Shown one piece after another: positions 984 to 64,000 of a stretch of 64,000 nucleotides of DNA. Location: assembly GCA_000092065.1 (NCBI GenBank), contig CP000594.1; one strand, given 5' to 3'. A model generated the notes under the pieces. That model ran no database searches. It was not told the DNA's origin and saw only the letters and a list, made by a program, of their open reading frames with translations. Origin of the DNA: Ostreococcus lucimarinus (taxonomy: Eukaryota). Made by a program: the position numbers and the translations under genes. The first letter of the stretch is position 1. Each line of letters opens with the position of its first letter.

Positions 984-1774
984 CTTTAATCTGCATCGCG
1001 AGAAATCGCACGCATTCGTCAGTCTCGCGTCCTTCGCGCGCGCGCGCGGGTGGATAATCCACTCCCGAGCGTTACTCAAAATAAACAATACTCGGACATT
1101 CGACTCGTATACGAGTATACGAAATCCCGATCACCCAAAACCGTATCTGATCGCGTCCCACCGCTGTCTCCGCGTCGCTTCCGTCGGGTCGTTGACGACG
1201 CCATCGAACGCGCGCGCGGACGCGCGCGCCGACGCCCTCGCGCCGCGCGCGCCGCGCGCGTGATGCGCAAGAATCTTTCGCACCCCTCGACGCGGCACCA
1301 CCCCCCCCTCCCGCGCGCGCGCGCGAGATCGACGCCCGCGGTCGACCTCCGCGCGCACGCGCCATCGTCCGTCCGCGCCGCGCCCCCGTCCGCGCGACGC
1401 CCTTCCGTCCGCGCGCGCGACGCCATCGCGCGAAGTCCTAACTCACGCACCGTATCCGCGAGCGCTCGCGCCGTTCGACGCCCCTCGCGCGCGCGCGTCG
1501 CCGACGTCGCCGCGCGTTCGAATGTCGCCGCGCGTGGCGACCGCGACGTGTCGGGCGTCCGCGATTTTGGCGCGAAAAAGATTTCCCATACTCCAGCGCG
1601 TTTTCGCCCATCGTTGCGTGTTTATACCGTATAGGCACCCTCGGCGATCCAGGGCAACTCTATCCGGGCGAGAGATTTTTTTAACTTTTCGGGTGTCTTT
1701 TTGCGCGTCGTGTCGAGTCGTGACTCGTCGATGGGGGGGGACTCGCGACCGCCCCCGGAGATATCTGACGTGGA

Positions 1775-16820: not shown

Positions 16821-17860
16821 TTAGTCGTAGCGGTCGAGCTTGATTTGCATCGGTCGGTGCTCCAACTCGACGCCGTTGAAACCTTGGATCGCGGCTTGCG
16901 CCTGTTCGCGGGTTTCGAAGAGCACGGTACCCCAGCCCTTGGATCGGCCGGTGTCGGTGTGGCACACCGCAACGGCGTTCACGACGTTACCAACTTGTTG
17001 GAACACTTGGCGGAGATCCTCGCTGGTGGTGGTCCACGGCAAGTTGCGAACGACGATTTGCAAGCCGCTCGAGTTCTCCGGACGAGTCTCGACGCGCGCG
17101 CTCTTTTGGCCAGCTCCCGGACGCTCGACGCGAACGATGATCGATCGGCCTTGAATCTCAGAGTTGTGCATTTGCTCGATGGCGTTTTGCGCCTCCTCCG
17201 GCGTGGCGAAGTCGACCAAGGCCCAACCCTTGGATCGCCCGCCGCTTTGGCGCGCCACCTCGCATTGCACGACGTTCACGCCGAAGCTCGCGCAGTGCGA
17301 CGTGAGCGTTTCCTCCGAGGTTTCCCACGCGAGGTTACCGAAGTAGCATCGGCATCCGTCGCCGCCCGCCGGGGCGTCGCCGAGCACGCTCGCGCTCGCC
17401 TTCTTCGCGCCGCCCGCCGCCTTCGTCGGCGCCTTGTCTTCGCGCACCGTGATCGTGCGATCACCGAGCGGCGTGCCTGCGGTTCGCCAACGCCGCGCGT
17501 TCCATCGTCAGTCTCCACCACATTCCCTCGTTTTCACCCATCTCGCGCGCTCGCGCCCGTCGCTCGCAATCTTCGTCTCGCCCGCGATCTCGATCTTCGC
17601 CCCGCGATCGCGTCCAATCCGCGCCCGATCCGCGTCTCTCTTCACGCACCGTCCATCCGCGTCACCGCGGCCTGCGCCTCGGCCTCGGAGTTAAACTCCA
17701 CGAGTCCGTACCCCCGGCTTCGCCCCTGGCGCCCCGTCGGGATGTCCACGCGCGTCACGCCGCCGCACTCCGCGAAGAGCTCGCGCAAATCCTCGATCGT
17801 CGTGCTCCACGGGATGTTCCCGACGTATAATCGCGCGCTCGATCCCCCGTCGACGTCCAT
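16821..17860 (-). CDS. RNA-binding protein with three RRM domains; two exons (17860..17650 and 17476..16821)
   Basis: Exon 1 encodes MDVDGGSSARLYVGNIPWSTTIEDLRELFAECGGVTRVDIPTGRQGRSRGYGLVEFNSEAEAQAAVTRMDG (RRM1) and ends at a GTGCGTG donor. Exon 2 follows a CAG acceptor, is phase-1 compatible, and continues with two more RRMs (CYFGNLAWETSEETL...KGWALVDF and LQIVVRNLPWTTTSEDL...KGWGTVLF). The two track ORFs (17642..17860 and 16821..17447, the latter GTG-started) are the two exons. Confidence 0.75.
17477..17649 (-). other. spliceosomal intron (173 nt) of the RRM gene
   Basis: Donor GACG|GTGCGTGAA; branch agaCTGACgatgg 31 nt upstream of acceptor aaccgCAG|G. Splicing restores a continuous RRM1-linker-RRM2 reading frame. 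Confidence 0.7.
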
Positions 17861-44923: not shown

Positions 44924-46192
44924 ATGCGCGACGCGCGGCGCCGCGCGCGCGCGCCGCGCGCGCGAATCGTCGCGGCGCTCGCGCTCGCGCTCGTCGCGGC
45001 GCGCGCGCGCGCGGGACGCGCGCGCGAGGCGACGGGACGCGCGAACGATGGCGACGACGTCGCGGCGCTGCGCGACGCGCTGCCGAGCGACGGCGCGACG
45101 CTGAGCGAACTGTTCAGGTGGTCGATCGAGGCGGGACACCCGCGCGCGTCGAGCGACGCCGACGATCGGGCGCGCGGCGACGCGGGTCGGGCGGAGGGTT
45201 GGCGCGCGAGGGCGCGCGCGGCGCTCGCGCGAGCGACGGGACGACGCGACGACGGCGCGAGCGCGGTCGACGCGATCGACGACGACGAGGGCGCGGAAGC
45301 GGAAGCGGGACGGTCGAAGACGGTGGATTCGATCGAGTCGAGGAAGAGGGAGGTGCGGGAGGCGCTGGACGCGATGGCGGCGGCGCCGAGTCCGCACGCG
45401 CTCGCGCGAGAGTGCGGCGAAGTGGTGAGGGACGCGCGTAAGAATGAAACCAAGGCGCGAAGGGTGCGCGCGCTGGAGATTTTGTACGATTTGGTGGCGC
45501 CGATCGAGTTGGCGAACGATTTGGATAAGCTCGGGGTGGCGGAGGCGCTGATCGGGGCGCTGAGGGACGAGGACGAGGACGTGGCGAGCGCGGCGGCGAG
45601 CGCGCTCGCGGCGGCGGCGTCGAATAACGTCGTCGTGCAGGGGATCATTCACGAGAGACGAGGGTTCGATGCGCTTTTAGAGCTCGTGTCGTCGCCCGCG
45701 ACGCCCGCGGAGGTGCGTCATAAGTCGTTGTGGGTGCTCGGGATGTGCGCGCGGACGCACGAGGCGTCGCGCGCCGACTTTTTCGCCGCGGGCGGCGCCG
45801 GCGTGTTGGCTGATATTTTGTCTCCGAAAACGCCGGTCAAGACGCGCACGCGCGCGATGGTCTTATTCGGCGACTTAGTTCTCATCGACGGCGTCGCGGA
45901 CGCGATGTTTGCCGACGTAAAAGTCGCGAAATCCTTACTCGAGGACGTCGTCGCGAGCGCGCTCGACGCCGACGCCTCGCTCGACGCGCGCGAGAAAGCG
46001 ATCGGCGCGCTTCTCGCCGCGCGCGAGCGCGGCCCTGAGATCGTGCGACATACGCTCGACGGATTCAAGCGCGATCTCTCGACGCTCGCCGACGCGTTCG
46101 ACGCCGCGGCAAAGGCGGAGGACGACGACTCCGCCGCCGACATCAGTCGTCTCGCGCGCGCGTTGAGCGTCTCGCCAAGGGTTGAATTGTAG
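44924..46192 (+). CDS. SIL1/Fes1-type nucleotide exchange factor (armadillo-repeat Hsp70 NEF) with signal peptide
   Basis: Signal peptide MRDARRRARAPRARIVAALALALVAARARAG, then ARM/HEAT-like repeats (RALEILYDLVAPIELANDLDKLGVAEALIGALRDEDEDVASAAASALAAAASNNVVVQGII...LLELVSSP...VRHKSLWVLGMCARTHEASRADFFAAGGAGVLADIL). C-terminus ...SPRVEL. Confidence 0.55.
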   Translation: MRDARRRARAPRARIVAALALALVAARARAGRAREATGRANDGDDVAALRDALPSDGATLSELFRWSIEAGHPRASSDADDRARGDAGRAEGWRARARAALARATGRRDDGASAVDAIDDDEGAEAEAGRSKTVDSIESRKREVREALDAMAAAPSPHALARECGEVVRDARKNETKARRVRALEILYDLVAPIELANDLDKLGVAEALIGALRDEDEDVASAAASALAAAASNNVVVQGIIHERRGFDALLELVSSPATPAEVRHKSLWVLGMCARTHEASRADFFAAGGAGVLADILSPKTPVKTRTRAMVLFGDLVLIDGVADAMFADVKVAKSLLEDVVASALDADASLDAREKAIGALLAARERGPEIVRHTLDGFKRDLSTLADAFDAAAKAEDDDSAADISRLARALSVSPRVEL

Positions 46193-46338
46193 CGCGCGCG
46201 CGTTGAAATAGCATCCTCGTTCGTTGGTCATGTGGACTTCTTCATCATCACATTTCTACTAGTGTTAGATGGCGCCTCGCTCGCGTCGTCGATCTCGAAA
46301 GACCGCCTCCGCTCGCGCGCGCTCGCGCCTCGCCCCGC

Positions 46339-47091
46339 TCAGATGCGGTCGCGCGGCCCGACGACGGCCGGTTGCTGCGGGCCGACCGTGATCGGAAGCT
46401 TGGCGTCCTTCGCCCCCTTCACGCCGTACCCGACGGTCAACAAACCCGCGGAAACGGCCAAGAGCGAGTACACGGCCTCGCGTCGGCCCAAGCCTTGCGC
46501 CGCGTATTCGAAAAACGCCGCCTGTTGATCCGGGTATCGGCTCGACGCGTCGACGCCGTAGACGTCCCACGACCCCGTCGTCGCCTCGACGTCGGACAGA
46601 TCGAAGTACACCGACTCATCGCCGTACTTCGCGTTCGTCTTCATCGCGCTGCATCGTTCGCAAACCACCGCGCGCGCCGTCAGTCCCTCGTCCCGCCGTC
46701 TCGCCCTCGCGCCCCGCTCGCTATCCGTCCCGATCGCGCCCCTCGCGCGCGTCTCCGCCCCTTTTCCGAACCCTCGTCGCCGCTCGCGCCGCGTCCCGCT
46801 CGCGTCGCGCGCGCGCGTCCTGGAGCGCGTCTCGCGCCCCTCGCACGCCCATCGTTCGCTCGCGTCGCGCGTCGTCGCGCGTCGCGTCGTCGTCCCGCGT
46901 CGCTCGAGATACGATCGCGATTCGCCCCTCGCGCGCCGCGCGTCGTTCGCGCGCGATCGCGCGTCGCGTCGCGTCACGCGCGGTCGATCGCGACGTCGCG
47001 GCACGCACCGTTCGCGTCGCGCGCGCGTCGAGCGCGGCGCGCGCACGGCGACGCCGGTGGCGAACGAGGTGGTCTTCGCGGTGGCGAACAT
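46339..47091 (-). CDS. PSAH: photosystem I reaction-centre subunit VI (PsaH) precursor; two exons (47091..47009 and 46648..46339)
   Basis: C-terminal part: KYGDESVYFDLSDVEATTGSWDVYGVDASSRYPDQQAAFFEYAAQGLGRREAVYSLLAVSAGLLTVGYGVKGAKDAKLPITVGPQQPAVVGPRDRI is PsaH as I recall it (plant PsaH-1: [27 protein letters not shown]...LPIKRGPQEPPKLGPRGKL). The unspliced track ORF (272 aa) has an implausible 140-aa Arg-rich insert. Exon 1 (MFATAKTTSFATGVAVRAPRSTRARRE, 83 nt) ends at ACG|GTGCGTG. An acceptor gatgCAG|C at 46649 is phase-2 compatible. The spliced precursor is 130 aa. Confidence 0.8.
   Translation of the reverse strand: MFATAKTTSFATGVAVRAPRSTRARRERCVPRRRDRPRVTRRDARSRANDARRARGESRSYLERRGTTTRRATTRDASERWACEGRETRSRTRARDASGTRRERRRGFGKGAETRARGAIGTDSERGARARRRDEGLTARAVVCERCSAMKTNAKYGDESVYFDLSDVEATTGSWDVYGVDASSRYPDQQAAFFEYAAQGLGRREAVYSLLAVSAGLLTVGYGVKGAKDAKLPITVGPQQPAVVGPRDRI
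46649..47008 (-). other. spliceosomal intron (360 nt) of PsaH
   Basis: Donor cgaaCG|GTGCGTGCC at 47008; branch gagggaCTGACggcg 31 nt upstream of acceptor cgaacgatgCAG|C. It shares gcgaggggcg and ggtttg...cgaac motifs with the RPA1 intron. Confidence 0.65.
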
Positions 47092-47339
47092 GGCGCGTCG
47101 GGGTGTGGCGACCGGGGATTCGTTTCTCCGTATTCGACGTCCATCGAACGCCATCATAGGGACGTCGATCGCGGTTTATCGCGATCCACGTGGATTCGGC
47201 GCGATCGCGTGTGGAATCGGGGGGACGCGCGATGGTATTATACGTCATCGAGGGGTATATAATGCGTCGAAGTTTTACTATATAGAGGAGCGCGATCGGT
47301 CGGACGGTCGGTCGGACGCGGTCGGTCGGACGGCGCGCG

Positions 47340-49592
47340 CTACGCGTCGTCGTCGTCGTCGTCGTCGGCGGCGGGGCGTCGGCCGGCGTGCGCGGCGTTG
47401 ATCTCGCGAGCCTCGCGGCGGAGGGACTTGACGACGCGGCGGTCGGCGCGGGCGGCGCGGGCGTCGGAGAGCGCGCGCGCGGAGGCGCGCGACGGACGCT
47501 GCCAGGCGCTGCTTCGGCGCGCGGGCGCGCGGGACGGGGCGTGGGAGTGGCCGTGGGCGTGGGCGTGGACGCGAGACGCGTCGGTGGACGCGGCGTGGGA
47601 GTGGCCGTGGGCGCGCTGGGCGCGTTTTTGGGCCTTGGCTTTGGCGGCGTCGGCGGAGGCGGCGGTTTCGGCGACGGCGAGGGCGCGGTCGGCCCAGGCG
47701 TAGGCGCTTTGCATCGCGGCCTGCGCGCCTTTGGTGGATTTGAGTTCGGTTTTGAACTCCTTTCGCGTCGACACCGGAACGAGGGCGCCGGCGTGATCTT
47801 TAGTCGCGCCGGGCGGCGCGACGACGAAGTCGTTCGCCGAACGAACGTCGACGAAGACGTCGGAAGAACGCGCGTCGACGTCGGCCGCGGACGCCGCGTT
47901 CGCCCTCGTCGCGGCTTTGTTAATTTCGTCGACGCGAAGCGCGTTCACGTCGTCCAGCATGCGGCGTCGCGCGCCTTCGAGATCTGTAATCATGCGCGTC
48001 GGGTACGTCGATCCCAACTCGACGCCCGCGGCGTCGAGCTGCTTCGCCGACGCTTCCCACGGGCGGTGTCGCAGGTGCCCTTTCGGCAGCGCCGCGAGCT
48101 CTGGAATCCATCGAGCGATGCTCTCGCCTTCGGGGTCGTGCGCTCGAGAGGATCCATCTGGGGTCAACGAACCCGCGAAGACGTCCCACTGATCGAGTCC
48201 GCTCTTTCCCGCGTTTTGCCACATCATGGAATTGATCGCCAAGTCCGCGTCCACGAGAGTGTCGAGGAACCAATCTGCGCCGTGCGTCCAATGAACGCCG
48301 CAGTAATCGACGAGAAACGTGGCCGCAATCATGCGTTCACTCTGATGCATCCATCCGGTGGCCCAAAGCCGGCGCATGCCCGCGTCCACGGTGGGGAAGC
48401 CCGTCGTTCCAGTTTGCCATCGATGAAGCGCAACGGCGGCTTCGTCGCCCTCCAACCAAGCCTTGCGATTCTCGTAGTGCCCACGCACGGACTTGGACGG
48501 TAACTCGGGCCAGTTGTGCAGTTGCCAGTACGCAAACTCTCGGCGATAGAGACGGTGCCAAAACACGCGAGAGAGCTTTTTGCCCTCCACCCCGTCGCTG
48601 CCCATCTTTTTCGTCGCCAATTCGTGGTAAATCTGCCGCGGCGATATCTGACCATGGCGTAAATACGGTGAAAGCGTGCTCACCGCGGCCGGAGCGACGA
48701 TATCCGCTCTTCCGTGATCGTCCTCAAACTTCTCCAACCCCACCGAAGCGAAGTGCTCCCAAGTAGAGGCGGCGCCCGACTCCGACATCGTCCACTCCGC
48801 GCGAATCCCAGCCGCCCAGTCCAAGCGTTTATCTACGTCTGATACTATCCCTAATTCTTCTAACGACGCCGCGAATCCGTGCTCGGGGCCTAAATCCACC
48901 ACTCGCGCGCTCGCCGGCGCCGCGCGCGGCGCCCCCACTTTCCCTCCGAGCTTCTCCGCGGCGTGCACGAACGGCATGAGCGTGCCGAAAAAGTACTTTT
49001 CCCTCCTCAGATCGATCTGAATCTTCTCTGGCTCAAACAACAAGTACCCCGGCAAGCGCACGATCTCGCACGCGTCCCGCACGCTCGCCGCCGTCTCTTC
49101 GTCGTCCGCGTCCGCCGTCGGTTCGTACCGCCTCGACGCGAACGCGCGCGTCGCTCCCACTCCCCCGCACGCCGCTCGCATCGCCTCCGCGTGCGTCCCG
49201 CGATAATACGACAGTCCTCCTCCACCGTACCGTCGTCGCAGTTCGCGATCGAGCGCGTCCAGCGCTTCGACCAACCACGCCCTTCGCGCGCCTCTCGTCG
49301 TCTCGCCGTCTCGCGTCTCGTCCCACGCGAACACGCACGCCGTCTCGCCGCCGCGCCGTCGCGCCGTCTCCACCGCGGCGAGCAGCGCGGCGTTATCGCT
49401 CACGCGCAGGTCGTGGTCTCGGAACCACGCGACGGCGCCGCGACGCGCGTCGTCGGCGTCGCGCTGACGATTTGTGTCGCCCTCGACGTCACGCGTCGCG
49501 CGCGGCGCGAACCGTCGTGCGGCGCGCGTCGCGGGCGAGGACGCGCGCGCGGCGATCGGCGTCGCCGAGCTCGCGCGCGCGCCGAGGCGCAT
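47340..49592 (-). CDS. cryptochrome/photolyase-family flavoprotein (plant-type cryptochrome-like) with long C-terminal extension and presequence-like N-terminus
   Basis: WFRDHDLRVSDNAALLAAV is the photolyase N-terminal motif. TGFPTVDAGMRRLWATGWMHQSERMIAATFLV resembles plant CRY ([33 protein letters not shown]). The C-terminal extension of about 250 aa has His-rich HGHSHAAS...HAHAHGHSHAPS and a poly-Asp end. Start at the ATG at 49592. Confidence 0.85.
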   Translation of the reverse strand: MRLGARASSATPIAARASSPATRAARRFAPRATRDVEGDTNRQRDADDARRGAVAWFRDHDLRVSDNAALLAAVETARRRGGETACVFAWDETRDGETTRGARRAWLVEALDALDRELRRRYGGGGLSYYRGTHAEAMRAACGGVGATRAFASRRYEPTADADDEETAASVRDACEIVRLPGYLLFEPEKIQIDLRREKYFFGTLMPFVHAAEKLGGKVGAPRAAPASARVVDLGPEHGFAASLEELGIVSDVDKRLDWAAGIRAEWTMSESGAASTWEHFASVGLEKFEDDHGRADIVAPAAVSTLSPYLRHGQISPRQIYHELATKKMGSDGVEGKKLSRVFWHRLYRREFAYWQLHNWPELPSKSVRGHYENRKAWLEGDEAAVALHRWQTGTTGFPTVDAGMRRLWATGWMHQSERMIAATFLVDYCGVHWTHGADWFLDTLVDADLAINSMMWQNAGKSGLDQWDVFAGSLTPDGSSRAHDPEGESIARWIPELAALPKGHLRHRPWEASAKQLDAAGVELGSTYPTRMITDLEGARRRMLDDVNALRVDEINKAATRANAASAADVDARSSDVFVDVRSANDFVVAPPGATKDHAGALVPVSTRKEFKTELKSTKGAQAAMQSAYAWADRALAVAETAASADAAKAKAQKRAQRAHGHSHAASTDASRVHAHAHGHSHAPSRAPARRSSAWQRPSRASARALSDARAARADRRVVKSLRREAREINAAHAGRRPAADDDDDDDA

Positions 49593-49666
49593 CGCGCGCG
49601 CGACGCGACGCGACGCGACGAGCGACGACGAATGGCGACGACGAACGGCGTCTCGTCTGGATTCGA

Positions 49667-50572
49667 TTAAATGTTGAGCGCGTGCGCGACGGATCCCGCG
49701 AGCTTCAAAACGACGAAAGGCGCGACGCCGCTGCACGCGCTGACGGTCTGCGGACACGAATCGGTGATCCAAAAGTTGGCGAACCCGGCGGACGGGTCGG
49801 TGAAACGACGCCAAGACTCGTTGGGAAAGACGCCGTGGGTGACGTAGGCGCTCACCGCGGAGGCGCCCTCGCGGCGAAGAACCTTGGCGCACTCGATGAG
49901 GGTGCCGCCGGATTGCACGAGATCGTCCACGATGACGATGTGCTTACCCGTGGGTTTGCCCTCCTTGATCGTGACGATGCGCTTGTCGCCCTCGCGAACC
50001 TTGGTGCAGACGACCTCGTCGTACTTGGCGAAAAAGTTGTGAAAGCGCTTGCACGCGCCCTCGTCGGGGTAGGCGATGACGACGTCCGCGGCGTCTTCTA
50101 AACTTGCTAATCGCTCCAACAAAAGCGGAATTCCCGATGCGAACAGCGGAGTGACGGAGTCACCGAAATAAAATCGCTCCTGAAGCGCGTGAATGTCGAA
50201 CACGATCATATCCGTCGGCCCGCCTCGCGAGTGCGGAATCGAGCTCAACATTCTCGCCATCGTCACCGCGGTGGGGATTTCTCCTTCCTTATCCACCCGT
50301 TCGAACGTACCGGTGGGGAAAAACGGTAAGATCAATCTGAACGACGCGACGAACATCTTGGGAAGGGAGTATATCACGCTAAGCTGTTGGAAAATCACAG
50401 ACGCGTTGTGAAACGACGCCAAAAACGCCACGTGCCGCCCGTGCAGCTGTTCCGCGTCGTTCACGAAAATGTTCGGGAAACCATCCGCGAACGTGCGCCA
50501 CTGAATCTCACCCAACTCAATGTTTCCGTCGATCGCCGCGATCTCTCTCGCCATTTGTTCCATCTGTTCCAT
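49667..50572 (-). CDS. PRS: ribose-phosphate pyrophosphokinase (PRPP synthetase), class II plant type
   Basis: [13 protein letters not shown]...VAFLASFHN...PRPP-binding loop [22 protein letters not shown]; flexible loop and Mg site present. Confidence 0.85.
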
Positions 50573-61944: not shown

Positions 61945-64000
61945 ATGCCGCCCGCGCTGACGCCGAACGCGATATCCAATATTCTCGAACAGACCCACGG
62001 ATCGCAGGACTTCAAACCCATCGTCCAAGTGTTCGATCTGAAGGAATTGAAAACCAAACCCGACGCCGACGACGCCGCGAAGCGATTCCGCGTCCTCGCG
62101 TCCGACGGTGGATTCGCGGCGCAGGGATTGTTCGGGGCGGAGTTGAACGCGATGTGCGAGCGAGGGGAAATTACGAAATTCACGGTGCTGCGGTTGAGAG
62201 AGTACATCGTGAACGATCTGAACGGGAGACGGTGCGTGCGCGAGATGGGTTGGGATGGGCGGCGCGGCGCGGCGCGGCGCGGCGCGAGGGGCGAGACGAG
62301 ACGCGCGAGGATGGAGACGCGCGATCGAGGGATCGCGATGATCTTGGATGGAAGCGAGGAAGGCGGCGCGATGCGCGAGGGGGGTGACTGACGATCGTGC
62401 GAACGGACGAATGGTTTGAACGTAGGATTTTGATCGTCATGGACGCCGAGGTGATGGATCGGTACGACGCCGTCATCGGACAGCCGCGGGTGTGGCAGCC
62501 GGGGACTGGGACGAACGCGTCGACGGGGATGAACGCGGGGGGGATGCAACAGCAAAGAAACGCGTACGGAGGAGCGCCGGCGGCGCAGGTGGAAGGCTAC
62601 GGGTCGGGTGGAGGGAACGGCGCGAATCTGGCGACGGAACCGCCGCGCGCGAGCGGTGGCGGGTACGGTGGCGGCGCGCCGGCGGCGCAGGGGCAGTATC
62701 GTCGAGATGGTGGCGCGGTGGCGCGCAATGAGCAGCCGAGGTCCATCACGCCGATCCATGCGTTGAACCCGTACCAGAACCGTTGGACTATTCGCGCGCG
62801 AATCACGACTCCGTTGGAGTTGCGCTCGTATTCGAATGCGAAAGGCGAAGGTAAGGTGCTCGGCTTTCAAGTGCTCGATGCCGACGGAACGGAGATCAAG
62901 TGCGTGTGCTTTAACGACACCGCCGTGCGCCTCGCGGGGGAGTTACGTCAAGGCTTGGTGTACGAAATTTCCAAGGGAGCAATCGTCACGCCGCGCGACC
63001 CGCGGTACGCGATTTATCAGTACGAAATTAAGTTGGATAACCACGCGACGTTCGTGCCGTGTCCAGACGCCGAACGCGACATCAAGAAGATGGTATACAA
63101 GTTCAAGAAGCTTTCTGAACTCGACGCGCTCAACGCCGGAGATATGGTGGATGTCATTGGCATCGCATACTCTGTGGGTGATTTGACGACGATCATGAAG
63201 CGCGACGGTTCCGAAACTTCGAAGCGTTCTGTGATGATTCGCGACGACTCGGACACATCCATCGAGTTCACGCTTTGGGATCCGCACTCAGTCGAGATTG
63301 GCGGGCAAATCGAAAGCTTGATCGCTAGCGGCGAAAAACCCGTCATCGCGGTGAAGAGCTCTCGATTGGGCGAGTTCCAAGGCAAGAACATGGGCACCGT
63401 GAGCAGCACGATGGTAGAAATAAATCCCGACAGTTCCGAGGCGACGCGCATGCGCGTTTGGTTTGATCAAGGCGGCGCCGATAAAACTTTCAACTCCTTG
63501 AGCGGTTCTGGCGGTGGCGGCGGCAAAGGCAGTGGTGAATTGCTCTCGTTCTCGACTGTGAAAGAGATCGGTGAAGAACTCGTGGCTAAAAATGAGGGCG
63601 TGGCGTACCTGAGTTGCTGCGGTATCATAAAGCACATCAAACTCGGCGCGGAAGGTAACTTCTATCCCGCGTGTCCGTTGCTTAATGGTGAACGCACGTG
63701 CCAAAAGAAGCTGCGTAAAGATGACTCGACTGGTGAATGGAAGTGCGAACGTCACGCCGGTGAAAAAATCGAAGCCGCGGATTGGCGTTACATGTTTAGC
63801 ATGGTTTGCATGGATCACAGCGATGAGTATTGGGTGAGCGTTTTCGGTGACAAGGGTGACAAGATTTTCGGGATAAGCGCCGCTGAAATGAAGGAAATCT
63901 ACGACCGTGAACCGGAGCGATACGAAAACATGATCAGTGACGCACTGTTCAACGATTACTCTCTACGCGTTAAGGTCGCCGTTGACAACTACACCGACGT
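61945..64000 (+). CDS. RPA1: replication protein A 70 kDa subunit (RPA1), partial (3' end beyond the window); exon 1 is 61945..62231 and exon 2 starts at 62426
   Basis: Exon 1: MPPALTPNAISNILEQTHGSQDFKPIVQVFDLKELK...LREYIVNDLNGR is the RPA70N domain. It ends at ACG|GTGCGTG, and the acceptor aacgTAG|G restores ...NGRR|ILIVMDAEVM (cf. human DGRRVVILMELEVL). Exon 2 continues through a Gly-rich linker into DBD-A and DBD-B (ITPIHALNPYQNRWTIRARI...; CPLLNGERTCQKKLRKDDSTGEWKCERH zinc ribbon). It runs off the window end, so the track does not list it. Confidence 0.85.
62232..62425 (+). other. spliceosomal intron (194 nt) of RPA1
   Basis: GTGCGTGCGCGAGATGGGT... donor region; branch ggtgaCTGACgatcg 34 nt before acceptor ttgaacgTAG|G; contains a (GCGGCGC)n microrepeat. 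Confidence 0.8.

What the first reader, a model, noticed from the sequence alone, without database searches (positions are those of the whole stretch)
46339..47091. PsaH is a split gene: the unspliced ORF carries a 140-aa Arg-rich insert that is removed by a 360-nt intron
The C-terminal 95 aa are unmistakably PSI subunit H. The continuous ORF would give a 272-aa precursor whose middle section is low-complexity Arg/Gly/Thr sequence. A GTGCGTG donor directly follows a transit-peptide-like exon (MFATAKTTSFATGVAVRAPRSTRARRE). A phase-compatible CAG acceptor is preceded by CTGAC. Splicing yields a 130-aa precursor ending MKTNAKYGDESVYFDL..., the size and layout of plant PsaH precursors. Automatic annotation would probably call the long ORF.
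Basis: partly seen in the sequence, partly recalled or inferred. Interest (0 to 1): 0.5.

Follow-up and report, generated by a model that had tools for sequence, protein, structure and literature searches.

The report
Known one-intron psaH gene of Ostreococcus

Summary
The window comes from Ostreococcus lucimarinus CCE9901. Joining 47091..47009 to 46648..46339 on the minus strand gives a 130-aa precursor. That product is 100% identical over its full length to the annotated psaH protein XP_001421408.1 / ABO99701.1 / UniProt A4S781.

The 360-nt intron (47008..46649) is phase 2 and splits Arg codon 28. Its GTGCGTG donor and GACTGACG branch motif match the published consensus for O. lucimarinus introns outside chromosome 2.

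Three short environmental contigs and two Tara metatranscriptome-derived proteins lack exactly these 360 bases. Five metagenome or read-archive contigs from near-identical strains keep the intron, and four of them carry frame-breaking 1-nt indels in it.

The same phase-2 intron in an Arg codon just upstream of the mature KYGDE N-terminus occurs in Micromonas commoda (cDNA against genome), M. pusilla, Cymbomonas and Klebsormidium. It is therefore probably ancient.

The stop-free read-through ORF is a chance product of T-poor, 76% GC sequence: about 29% of shuffles are also stop-free.

Two corrections: the intron contributes 120 codons, not 140, and the other 22 come from an unconserved in-frame upstream ATG. 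The reference annotation does not call the long ORF. Interest is low.

The parts
47009..47091 (-). psaH exon 1 (coding part). It runs from the ATG at 47091 through 27 codons plus 2 nt and encodes most of the chloroplast transit peptide, MFATAKTTSFATGVAVRAPRSTRARRE(R).
   Evidence: Identical to residues 1-27 of XP_001421408.1. The start position matches the MFA.../MAF... starts of the Ostreococcus and Micromonas orthologues.
46649..47008 (-). Spliceosomal intron: 360 nt, GT-AG, phase 2, splitting Arg codon 28 (CG|C); 76% GC.
   Evidence: Absent to the base from contigs L001 and L002. Present in contigs L003, L004, L005 and L007, all with frame-breaking 1-nt indels; L006 covers only the 3' part of the intron. 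GC is flat across codon positions, unlike the exons. The same position and phase occur in five other green-lineage psaH genes.
47002..47008 (-). 5' splice site, GTGCGTG.
   Evidence: Exact match to the atypical O. lucimarinus non-chromosome-2 consensus GTGCGTG (PMC2483917). The motif is enriched in the window.
46678..46685 (-). Branch-point motif GACTGACG. The branch A is at 46680, about 31 nt upstream of the 3' splice site.
   Evidence: Exact match to the extended branch-point consensus GACTGACG found in 66.5% of EST-confirmed non-chromosome-2 introns (PMC2483917).
46649..46651 (-). 3' splice site, CAG.
   Evidence: The junction in L001 and L002 falls here. Invariant in all five genomic haplotypes.
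46339..46648 (-). psaH exon 2 (coding part). It encodes the last 7 transit-peptide residues and mature PsaH (KYGDESVYFDL...GPRDRI), with the TGA stop at 46341..46339.
   Evidence: Pfam PF03244, E = 1.4e-47. Deposited PsaH chains that start at the KYG motif begin their alignment at query residue 35. 100% identical in L001, L002 and L005-L007.
47092..47157 (-). In-frame upstream ATGATGG and a 22-codon extension (MMAFDGRRIRRNESPVATPRRA). Most likely 5' UTR rather than coding sequence.
   Evidence: Present in L001 and L002. It is not conserved in O. tauri; the alignment to 7YCA_H starts only 3 residues upstream of the Met. It carries 8-10 substitutions per 66 nt between haplotypes. In variant P0105 the upstream ATG reads exon 1 in a different frame.
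47236..47284 (-). AT-rich block with three TATA-like elements (TATATA, TTATATA, TATAATA). Putative core promoter.
   Evidence: Nearly invariant across haplotypes, whereas the stretch just downstream of it (about 47170-47200) is hypervariable. Promoter function is inferred, not tested.

Best explanation
This is the nuclear psaH gene (photosystem I subunit H / VI) of Ostreococcus lucimarinus CCE9901, transcribed from the minus strand.

The primary transcript contains one canonical U2-type intron (47008..46649). It is recognised through the species-typical strong signals GTGCGTG (5' splice site), GACTGACG (branch point) and CAG (3' splice site). Splicing joins 83 nt of exon 1 to exon 2 inside an Arg codon.

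The mRNA encodes a 130-aa precursor: a transit peptide of about 34 aa rich in Ser, Thr, Ala and Arg, followed by mature PsaH of about 96 aa starting at KYGDE. The precursor is imported into the chloroplast and assembled into PSI.

The 272-aa read-through ORF is a by-product of a stop-poor, GC-rich intron whose length happens to be a multiple of three.

Shown: gene identity, the exact intron boundaries, the match to the consensus signals, the conservation of the intron position, and the non-coding pattern of evolution in the intron. Inferred: that the intron-less contigs are cDNA-derived, the transit-peptide cleavage site (by homology to deposited PsaH chains that start at the KYG motif), and use of the ATG at 47091.
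For: 1. Annotation. The spliced product is 100% identical over 130/130 aa to 'psaH, PSI-H, subunit VI [Ostreococcus lucimarinus CCE9901]', XP_001421408.1 / ABO99701.1 / A4S781.

2. Family. Pfam PSI_PsaH, 161 bits against a cut-off of 25. The product aligns without gaps to O. tauri PsaH in the solved PSI structure 7YCA chain H, residues 37-166.

3. Intron-less sequences. Contigs L001 and L002 align to 47332..47009 and then directly to 46649 onward, at 100% and 99.9% identity after the junction. Protein P0106 and the Tara metatranscriptome-derived proteins P0008 and P0107 carry the same ...ERAMKTNAKYG junction.

4. Genomic contigs. L003, L004, L005 and L007 keep the intron with 7-15 substitutions and 1-2 single-base indels, while exon 2 is 100% conserved. 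The ORFs called on them enter the psaH frame from a different frame (P0005, P0006, P0105).

5. Splice signals. The donor and branch motifs equal the published consensus for this species (PMC2483917).

6. Conservation. A phase-2 intron in an Arg codon lies 5-12 residues before KYGDE in M. commoda (confirmed by cDNA L009 against genome L008), M. pusilla, Cymbomonas and Klebsormidium. The same structure was read by eye in contig L011 from another Ostreococcus clade.

7. Composition. GC by codon position is flat in the intron (0.71/0.77/0.81). Exon 2 shows a coding-like pattern (0.64/0.48/0.86).
Against: The sample type of L001 (JGI 3300016791) and L002 (Logan SRR6824979) could not be verified as RNA; a literature search found nothing. 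Both contigs extend upstream of the putative TATA elements. L001 is joined at a (CCGA)n microsatellite to an unrelated gene end, so the assemblies are not clean single transcripts.

No reads from strain CCE9901 itself were examined.

An in-frame upstream ATG in strong context (A at -3, G at +4) is present in the intron-less contigs. This leaves the true start codon formally open.
Confidence: 0.95

Rival explanations
1. The intron-less contigs are genomic DNA from natural Ostreococcus strains that have precisely lost the intron. This would be an intron presence/absence polymorphism rather than spliced transcripts.
For: L001 and L002 include sequence upstream of the TATA-like block and run into neighbouring genes. 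Their exon-1 and upstream haplotype, about 89% identical to the window, was not found in any intron-containing DNA contig. The sample types are unverified.
Against: In this gene-dense genome, RNA assemblies do merge neighbouring genes. The M. commoda contig L009 spans psaH and the convergent Fes1 gene and also lacks a 69-nt stretch within the neighbouring Fes1 gene range, so it is RNA-derived. P0008 and P0107 come from MERC, which to my knowledge is a protein-level assembly of Tara metatranscriptomes, and they carry the same junction. Every contig labelled METAG retains the intron. Even if this rival were true, it would confirm the same intron boundaries.
Confidence: 0.04
2. Translation starts at the upstream in-frame ATG (47157 or 47154), giving a 152-aa precursor with a 22-aa N-terminal extension.
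For: The ATGATGG is present in all haplotypes seen, although L005 loses the first ATG. It lies in the intron-less contigs, and the second ATG has a strong Kozak-like context. The O. tauri model deposited with 7YCA also carries a 36-aa N-terminal extension.
Against: The extension shows no similarity to the O. tauri extension. It accumulates 8-10 substitutions per 66 nt between haplotypes; read by eye from the alignment, these show no third-position bias. In natural variant P0105 the upstream ATG reads exon 1 in another frame, which implies an indel in the extension. All Micromonas and Ostreococcus orthologues align from the MFA/MAF start.
Confidence: 0.1
3. The unspliced 250-272-aa ORF is translated, through intron retention, as a functional isoform carrying an Arg-rich linker.
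For: The intron is 360 nt (a multiple of three) and has no in-frame stop in strain CCE9901.
Against: 29% of shuffles are equally stop-free. Near-identical strains carry 1-nt indels that break the frame. The composition is not coding-like. No homologue has such an insert. The splice signals match the strong species consensus.
Confidence: 0.01

Closest known systems
Annotated psaH of Ostreococcus lucimarinus CCE9901 (XP_001421408.1 / ABO99701.1 / UniProt A4S781)
   Same: Identical 130-aa product. It is the same gene.
   Different: Nothing differs. The finding rediscovers the existing gene model.
PsaH of Ostreococcus tauri in the solved PSI supercomplex, PDB 7YCA chain H
   Same: Colinear and gap-free over all 130 residues, with a highly conserved mature part.
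   Different: The deposited O. tauri sequence is 166 aa, with a 36-aa N-terminal extension unrelated to the 22-aa extension possible here. The transit peptide is diverged.
Canonical non-chromosome-2 introns of O. lucimarinus (Irimia & Roy 2008, PMC2483917)
   Same: GTGCGTG 5' splice site and GACTGACG branch point, both exact.
   Different: At 360 nt it is longer than the species' median (111 nt) and mean (168 nt) predicted intron length in that paper's Table 2.
First intron of psaH in Micromonas commoda, M. pusilla, Cymbomonas tetramitiformis and Klebsormidium nitens
   Same: Phase 2, splitting an Arg codon in the transit peptide 5-12 residues before KYGDE. Synteny with the convergent Fes1 gene is kept in Micromonas.
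   Different: Intron lengths are 329-1233 nt with no evident sequence similarity. Cymbomonas and Klebsormidium have further downstream introns that Ostreococcus lacks, and M. pusilla has a second intron at a different site.

Membership tests
Photosystem I subunit H / VI (PsaH, Pfam PF03244) | Sequence match to the family profile above the curated threshold | tested here: met
   161.1 bits against a gathering cut-off of 25, E = 1.4e-47, covering profile positions 30-139 of 139.
Photosystem I subunit H / VI (PsaH, Pfam PF03244) | Colinear with PsaH chains seen in solved PSI structures | tested here: met
   32 PDB PsaH sequences matched. The best is 7YCA_H (O. tauri), E = 5.6e-63, gap-free over residues 1-130.
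Photosystem I subunit H / VI (PsaH, Pfam PF03244) | Nuclear-encoded precursor with a cleavable chloroplast transit peptide | tested here: inconclusive
   The 34 residues before KYGDE are rich in Ser, Thr, Ala and Arg, and deposited PsaH chains that start at the KYG motif begin their alignment at query residue 35. No targeting predictor or import assay was available.
Photosystem I subunit H / VI (PsaH, Pfam PF03244) | Physical presence in the PSI complex of this organism | not testable with these tools
   Known only for the O. tauri orthologue, from the PDB entry 7YCA.
U2-type spliceosomal intron, O. lucimarinus non-chromosome-2 class | GT-AG boundaries with the GTGCGTG 5' splice-site consensus | tested here: met
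   GTGCGTG at 47008..47002 and CAG at 46651..46649. Consensus from PMC2483917.
U2-type spliceosomal intron, O. lucimarinus non-chromosome-2 class | ACTGAC / GACTGACG branch-point motif near the 3' end | tested here: met
   GACTGACG at 46685..46678, with the branch A about 31 nt from the acceptor. Consensus.
U2-type spliceosomal intron, O. lucimarinus non-chromosome-2 class | Removed from mature transcripts at exactly these boundaries | tested here: met
   L001, L002, P0106, P0008 and P0107 lack exactly these 360 nt. Caveat: these come from closely related environmental strains, and the library type of L001 and L002 is unverified.
U2-type spliceosomal intron, O. lucimarinus non-chromosome-2 class | Evolves as non-coding sequence | tested here: met
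   1-nt indels and 7-15 substitutions per 360 nt in near-identical strains, against 0 in exon 2. GC is flat across codon positions.
Introner elements (repeated, transposon-like introns of Micromonas and other algae) | Intron sequence belongs to a multi-copy family | tested here: not met
   Within the 64-kb window only low-complexity matches of 62-78% identity overlap the intron. The position is ancestral, not a new insertion. The whole genome was not searched.

The most novel reading that the evidence does not exclude
The most novel reading my evidence does not exclude is that the intron-less contigs L001 and L002 are genomic. Natural Ostreococcus clade-A populations would then carry both intron-containing and precisely intron-less psaH alleles, a live case of intron loss at a position that has otherwise been conserved since before chlorophytes and streptophytes split.
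Probability: 0.04. Interest if true: 0.45.

Novelty: already known. Interest (0 to 1): 0.08.

Why it matters
It matters little as a discovery. The gene, its intron and its product are already in the public annotation, and the splice signals are textbook for this species.

It has two modest uses. First, it is a clean example of how ORF calling on GC-rich picoeukaryote DNA from metagenome assemblies produces spurious proteins that read through introns; several such proteins are in public catalogues (P0004-P0006, P0105). Second, the single intron retained in this compact genome sits at an ancient position in the transit-peptide region that is shared with streptophytes. [quoted passage not shown]

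Tried and rejected
- Introner or repeat origin of the intron. The repeat search of the window gave only low-complexity GC-rich matches. Rejected.
- A structured RNA such as a snoRNA hosted in the intron. The Rfam scan of 46200-47350 at E <= 1 gave one chance-level hit (20.6 bits against a gathering score of 83). Rejected.
- Coding potential of the antisense 296-aa ORF (46372..47262, plus strand) and of the frame-2 175-aa ORF. Neither has a Pfam match. Treated as GC-rich artefacts.
- Verifying that L001 and L002 come from RNA libraries, by literature search on the accessions. No papers were found.
- Retrieving the reference genomic locus through P0001. It is not on record in the contig index.
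- The apparent sharp change in divergence at the intron: upstream is 89% identical in L001/L002 and downstream is 100%. Most of it comes from a hypervariable 5' UTR block and a microsatellite. Exon 1 itself differs at only 3 of 83 positions. It is therefore not evidence for a chimera at the junction.

Full report
**What is in the sequence.**
On the minus strand a 272-aa ORF runs from 47157 to 46339. Its last 110 residues match Pfam PF03244 (PSI_PsaH) at 161 bits, E = 1.4e-47.
- Exon 1 is 47091..47009, 83 nt. It encodes MFATAKTTSFATGVAVRAPRSTRARRE plus two bases of the next codon.
- The intron is 47008..46649, exactly 360 nt. It starts GTGCGTG and ends GCAG, with GACTGACG at 46685..46678.
- Exon 2 is 46648..46339.

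The join is in frame and gives a 130-aa product.

Two numbers need correcting. The intron adds 120 codons, not 140.

**Identity of the organism and gene.**
A search of the protein collection with the spliced product returned a 130-aa protein that is 100% identical over 100% of its length. It is named 'psaH, PSI-H, subunit VI, photosystem I polypeptide [Ostreococcus lucimarinus CCE9901]'. Its accessions are ABO99701.1, XP_001421408.1 and UniRef100_A4S781. The window is therefore O. lucimarinus nuclear DNA.

ORFs that read through the intron do exist in public catalogues, called on genomic contigs from metagenome and read-archive assemblies. P0004-P0006 (139-170 aa) and P0105 (282 aa) all read intron sequence into the PsaH frame.

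**Evidence that the intron is removed at these boundaries.**
Two short environmental contigs encode the protein without the intron: L001 (JGI sample 3300016791) and L002 (Logan assembly of SRR6824979). Each aligns to the window up to 47009 and then continues directly from 46649. Identity after the junction is 100% (L001) and 99.9% (L002). The multiple alignment shows that exactly the GTGCGTG...GCAG block is missing. A third contig product (P0106) and two MERC proteins (P0008, P0107; accessions ERR1712216_..., ERR1712205_...) carry the same ...ERAMKTNAKYG junction. To my own knowledge MERC is a protein-level assembly of Tara Oceans metatranscriptomes.

By contrast, five contigs from near-identical strains contain the intron. 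Three of them are labelled METAG (L003, L005, L006); L004 is an ENA assembly contig and L007 a Logan contig. L006 covers only the 3' part of the intron.

I could not verify the library type of L001 and L002. Both also run into neighbouring genes. This is expected for RNA assemblies in so dense a genome. The Micromonas commoda contig L009 spans psaH and the convergent Fes1 gene. Relative to the genome it lacks both the psaH intron and a 69-nt stretch within the neighbouring Fes1 gene range. I therefore treat L001 and L002 as cDNA-derived, and I keep a small probability that they are intron-less alleles.

**The intron evolves as non-coding DNA.**
Across the contigs that cover the whole intron (L003, L004, L005, L007), it carries 7-15 substitutions and one or two single-base indels in 360 nt. 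The sampled part of exon 2 has none, and the full exon 2 plus downstream sequence is 100% identical in L005-L007. The indels break the long ORF. In those strains the called ORFs start in a different frame inside the intron (P0005, P0006).

GC content by codon position is flat in the intron (0.71/0.77/0.81) but coding-like in exon 2 (0.64/0.48/0.86). The intron has only 6.7% T. About 29% of dinucleotide-preserving shuffles lack an in-frame stop, and all three reverse frames are open as well. The stop-free read-through is therefore chance. The antisense 296-aa ORF and the frame-2 175-aa ORF have no Pfam match. Rfam finds nothing credible in the intron, and the window holds no repeat family related to it.

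**The splice signals are the species consensus.**
Irimia & Roy (PLoS Genet 2008, PMC2483917) examined EST-confirmed O. lucimarinus introns outside chromosome 2. They report that these have the atypical 5' consensus GTGCGTG, that 87% contain ACTGAC, and that 66.5% contain the extended branch motif GACTGACG. This intron has both motifs exactly, with the branch A about 31 nt from the CAG acceptor.

In the window GGTGCGTG occurs 8 times against 3.0 expected, and GACTGACG occurs 11 times against 4.3 expected. Four donor-branch pairs lie on the same strand in the right order within about 450 nt, and this locus is one of them. At 360 nt the intron is longer than the species' median of 111 nt.

**Comparison with orthologues.**
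The 130-aa product aligns without gaps to PsaH of O. tauri in the solved PSI supercomplex (7YCA chain H, residues 37-166, E = 5.6e-63). It is also colinear with the annotated precursors of M. commoda (131 aa) and M. pusilla (128 aa). Deposited PsaH chains that start at the KYG motif (about 94-100 aa) begin their alignment at query residue 35. This places the cleavage site near A34/K35. The intron at codon 28 therefore lies inside the transit peptide, seven codons before the mature protein.

I mapped the first intron in genomic loci of four other species. In every case it is phase 2 and splits an Arg codon:

| Species | Intron length | Residues between the Arg and KYG |
|---|---|---|
| O. lucimarinus | 360 nt | 6 |
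| M. commoda (confirmed, cDNA L009 against genome L008) | 329 nt | 6 |
| M. pusilla | 369 nt | 6 |
| Cymbomonas tetramitiformis | 497 nt | 5 |
| Klebsormidium nitens | 1233 nt | 12 |

A contig from another Ostreococcus clade (L011) shows the same structure, with a GTACGCG donor and a GACTGACG branch motif (read by eye in the sequence printed). The position therefore probably predates the split between chlorophytes and streptophytes. Cymbomonas and Klebsormidium have further downstream introns that Ostreococcus lacks. [quoted passage not shown] That paper does not mention psaH.

**Start codon.**
An ATGATGG at 47157..47151 is in frame with the annotated ATG at 47091 and is present in the intron-less contigs. 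Several observations argue against its use as the start:
- The 22-codon extension shows no similarity to the 36-aa extension of the deposited O. tauri sequence.
- It differs at 8-10 of 66 positions between haplotypes. Read by eye from the alignment, the changes show no third-position bias.
- In natural variant P0105 the upstream ATG reads exon 1 in another frame.
- All Mamiellales orthologues align from the MFA/MAF start.

I give the 152-aa precursor about a 10% chance.

**Verdict.**
The feature is an ordinary, already annotated gene with a canonical intron at an ancestral position. Novelty: already known. Interest: low.

Noticed in passing
window 47092-47157 (minus strand): An in-frame upstream ATGATGG lies 66 nt before the annotated psaH start, and the second ATG has a strong context. 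It is kept in all haplotypes seen, but the 22-codon extension evolves fast, and in variant P0105 it is out of frame with psaH. It may act as an upstream start or overlapping upstream ORF that affects translation.
   Followed up: partly
window about 47170-47200 and 47296-47330 (minus strand): A hypervariable block in the presumed 5' UTR shows at least three unalignable variants among seven haplotypes. A (CCGA)n microsatellite of variable length lies just after the stop of the upstream photolyase-like gene. The TATA-like block between them (47236-47284) is almost invariant.
   Followed up: partly
L001:1-212: The 5' end of the intron-less contig L001 encodes an unrelated C-terminus (...FAPGSYVYADADGVVVAAKKLEL*), which from memory looks RraA-like. 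It is joined to the psaH upstream region at the (CCGA)n repeat. This is probably a chimeric assembly, since it has no counterpart in the window.
   Followed up: partly
window 1017-1451 (-), 17506-17650 (-), 62231-62393 (+): Three more same-strand pairs of the species-specific donor GGTGCGTG and branch motif GACTGACG lie in the right order 140-430 nt apart. They are likely canonical introns of other genes in the window.
   Followed up: no
L010:2104-2310 (Micromonas pusilla CCMP1545 psaH): M. pusilla psaH has a second intron of about 200 nt at FFEK|..GLGRRE, a position not shared with the other species. The annotated protein lacks the conserved 'AAQ' residues there. It could be a lineage-specific insertion (possibly introner-like) with a slightly misplaced annotated splice site.
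   Followed up: no
P0008 / P0107 (Tara metatranscriptome-derived proteins): These carry the correct exon junction but lack 11 residues of the transit peptide (VRAPRSTRARR, 33 nt) within exon 1. This is either a natural in-frame deletion variant or an assembly artefact.
   Followed up: no
window 44924-46192 (+) and 47340-49892 (-): The neighbours are a convergent Fes1-like gene and an upstream photolyase/cryptochrome-family gene (PF00875 + PF03441). The psaH-Fes1 convergent pair is syntenic in both Micromonas genomes. In M. commoda the upstream neighbour is a ribose-phosphate pyrophosphokinase-like gene, which in Ostreococcus lies one gene further away.
   Followed up: partly
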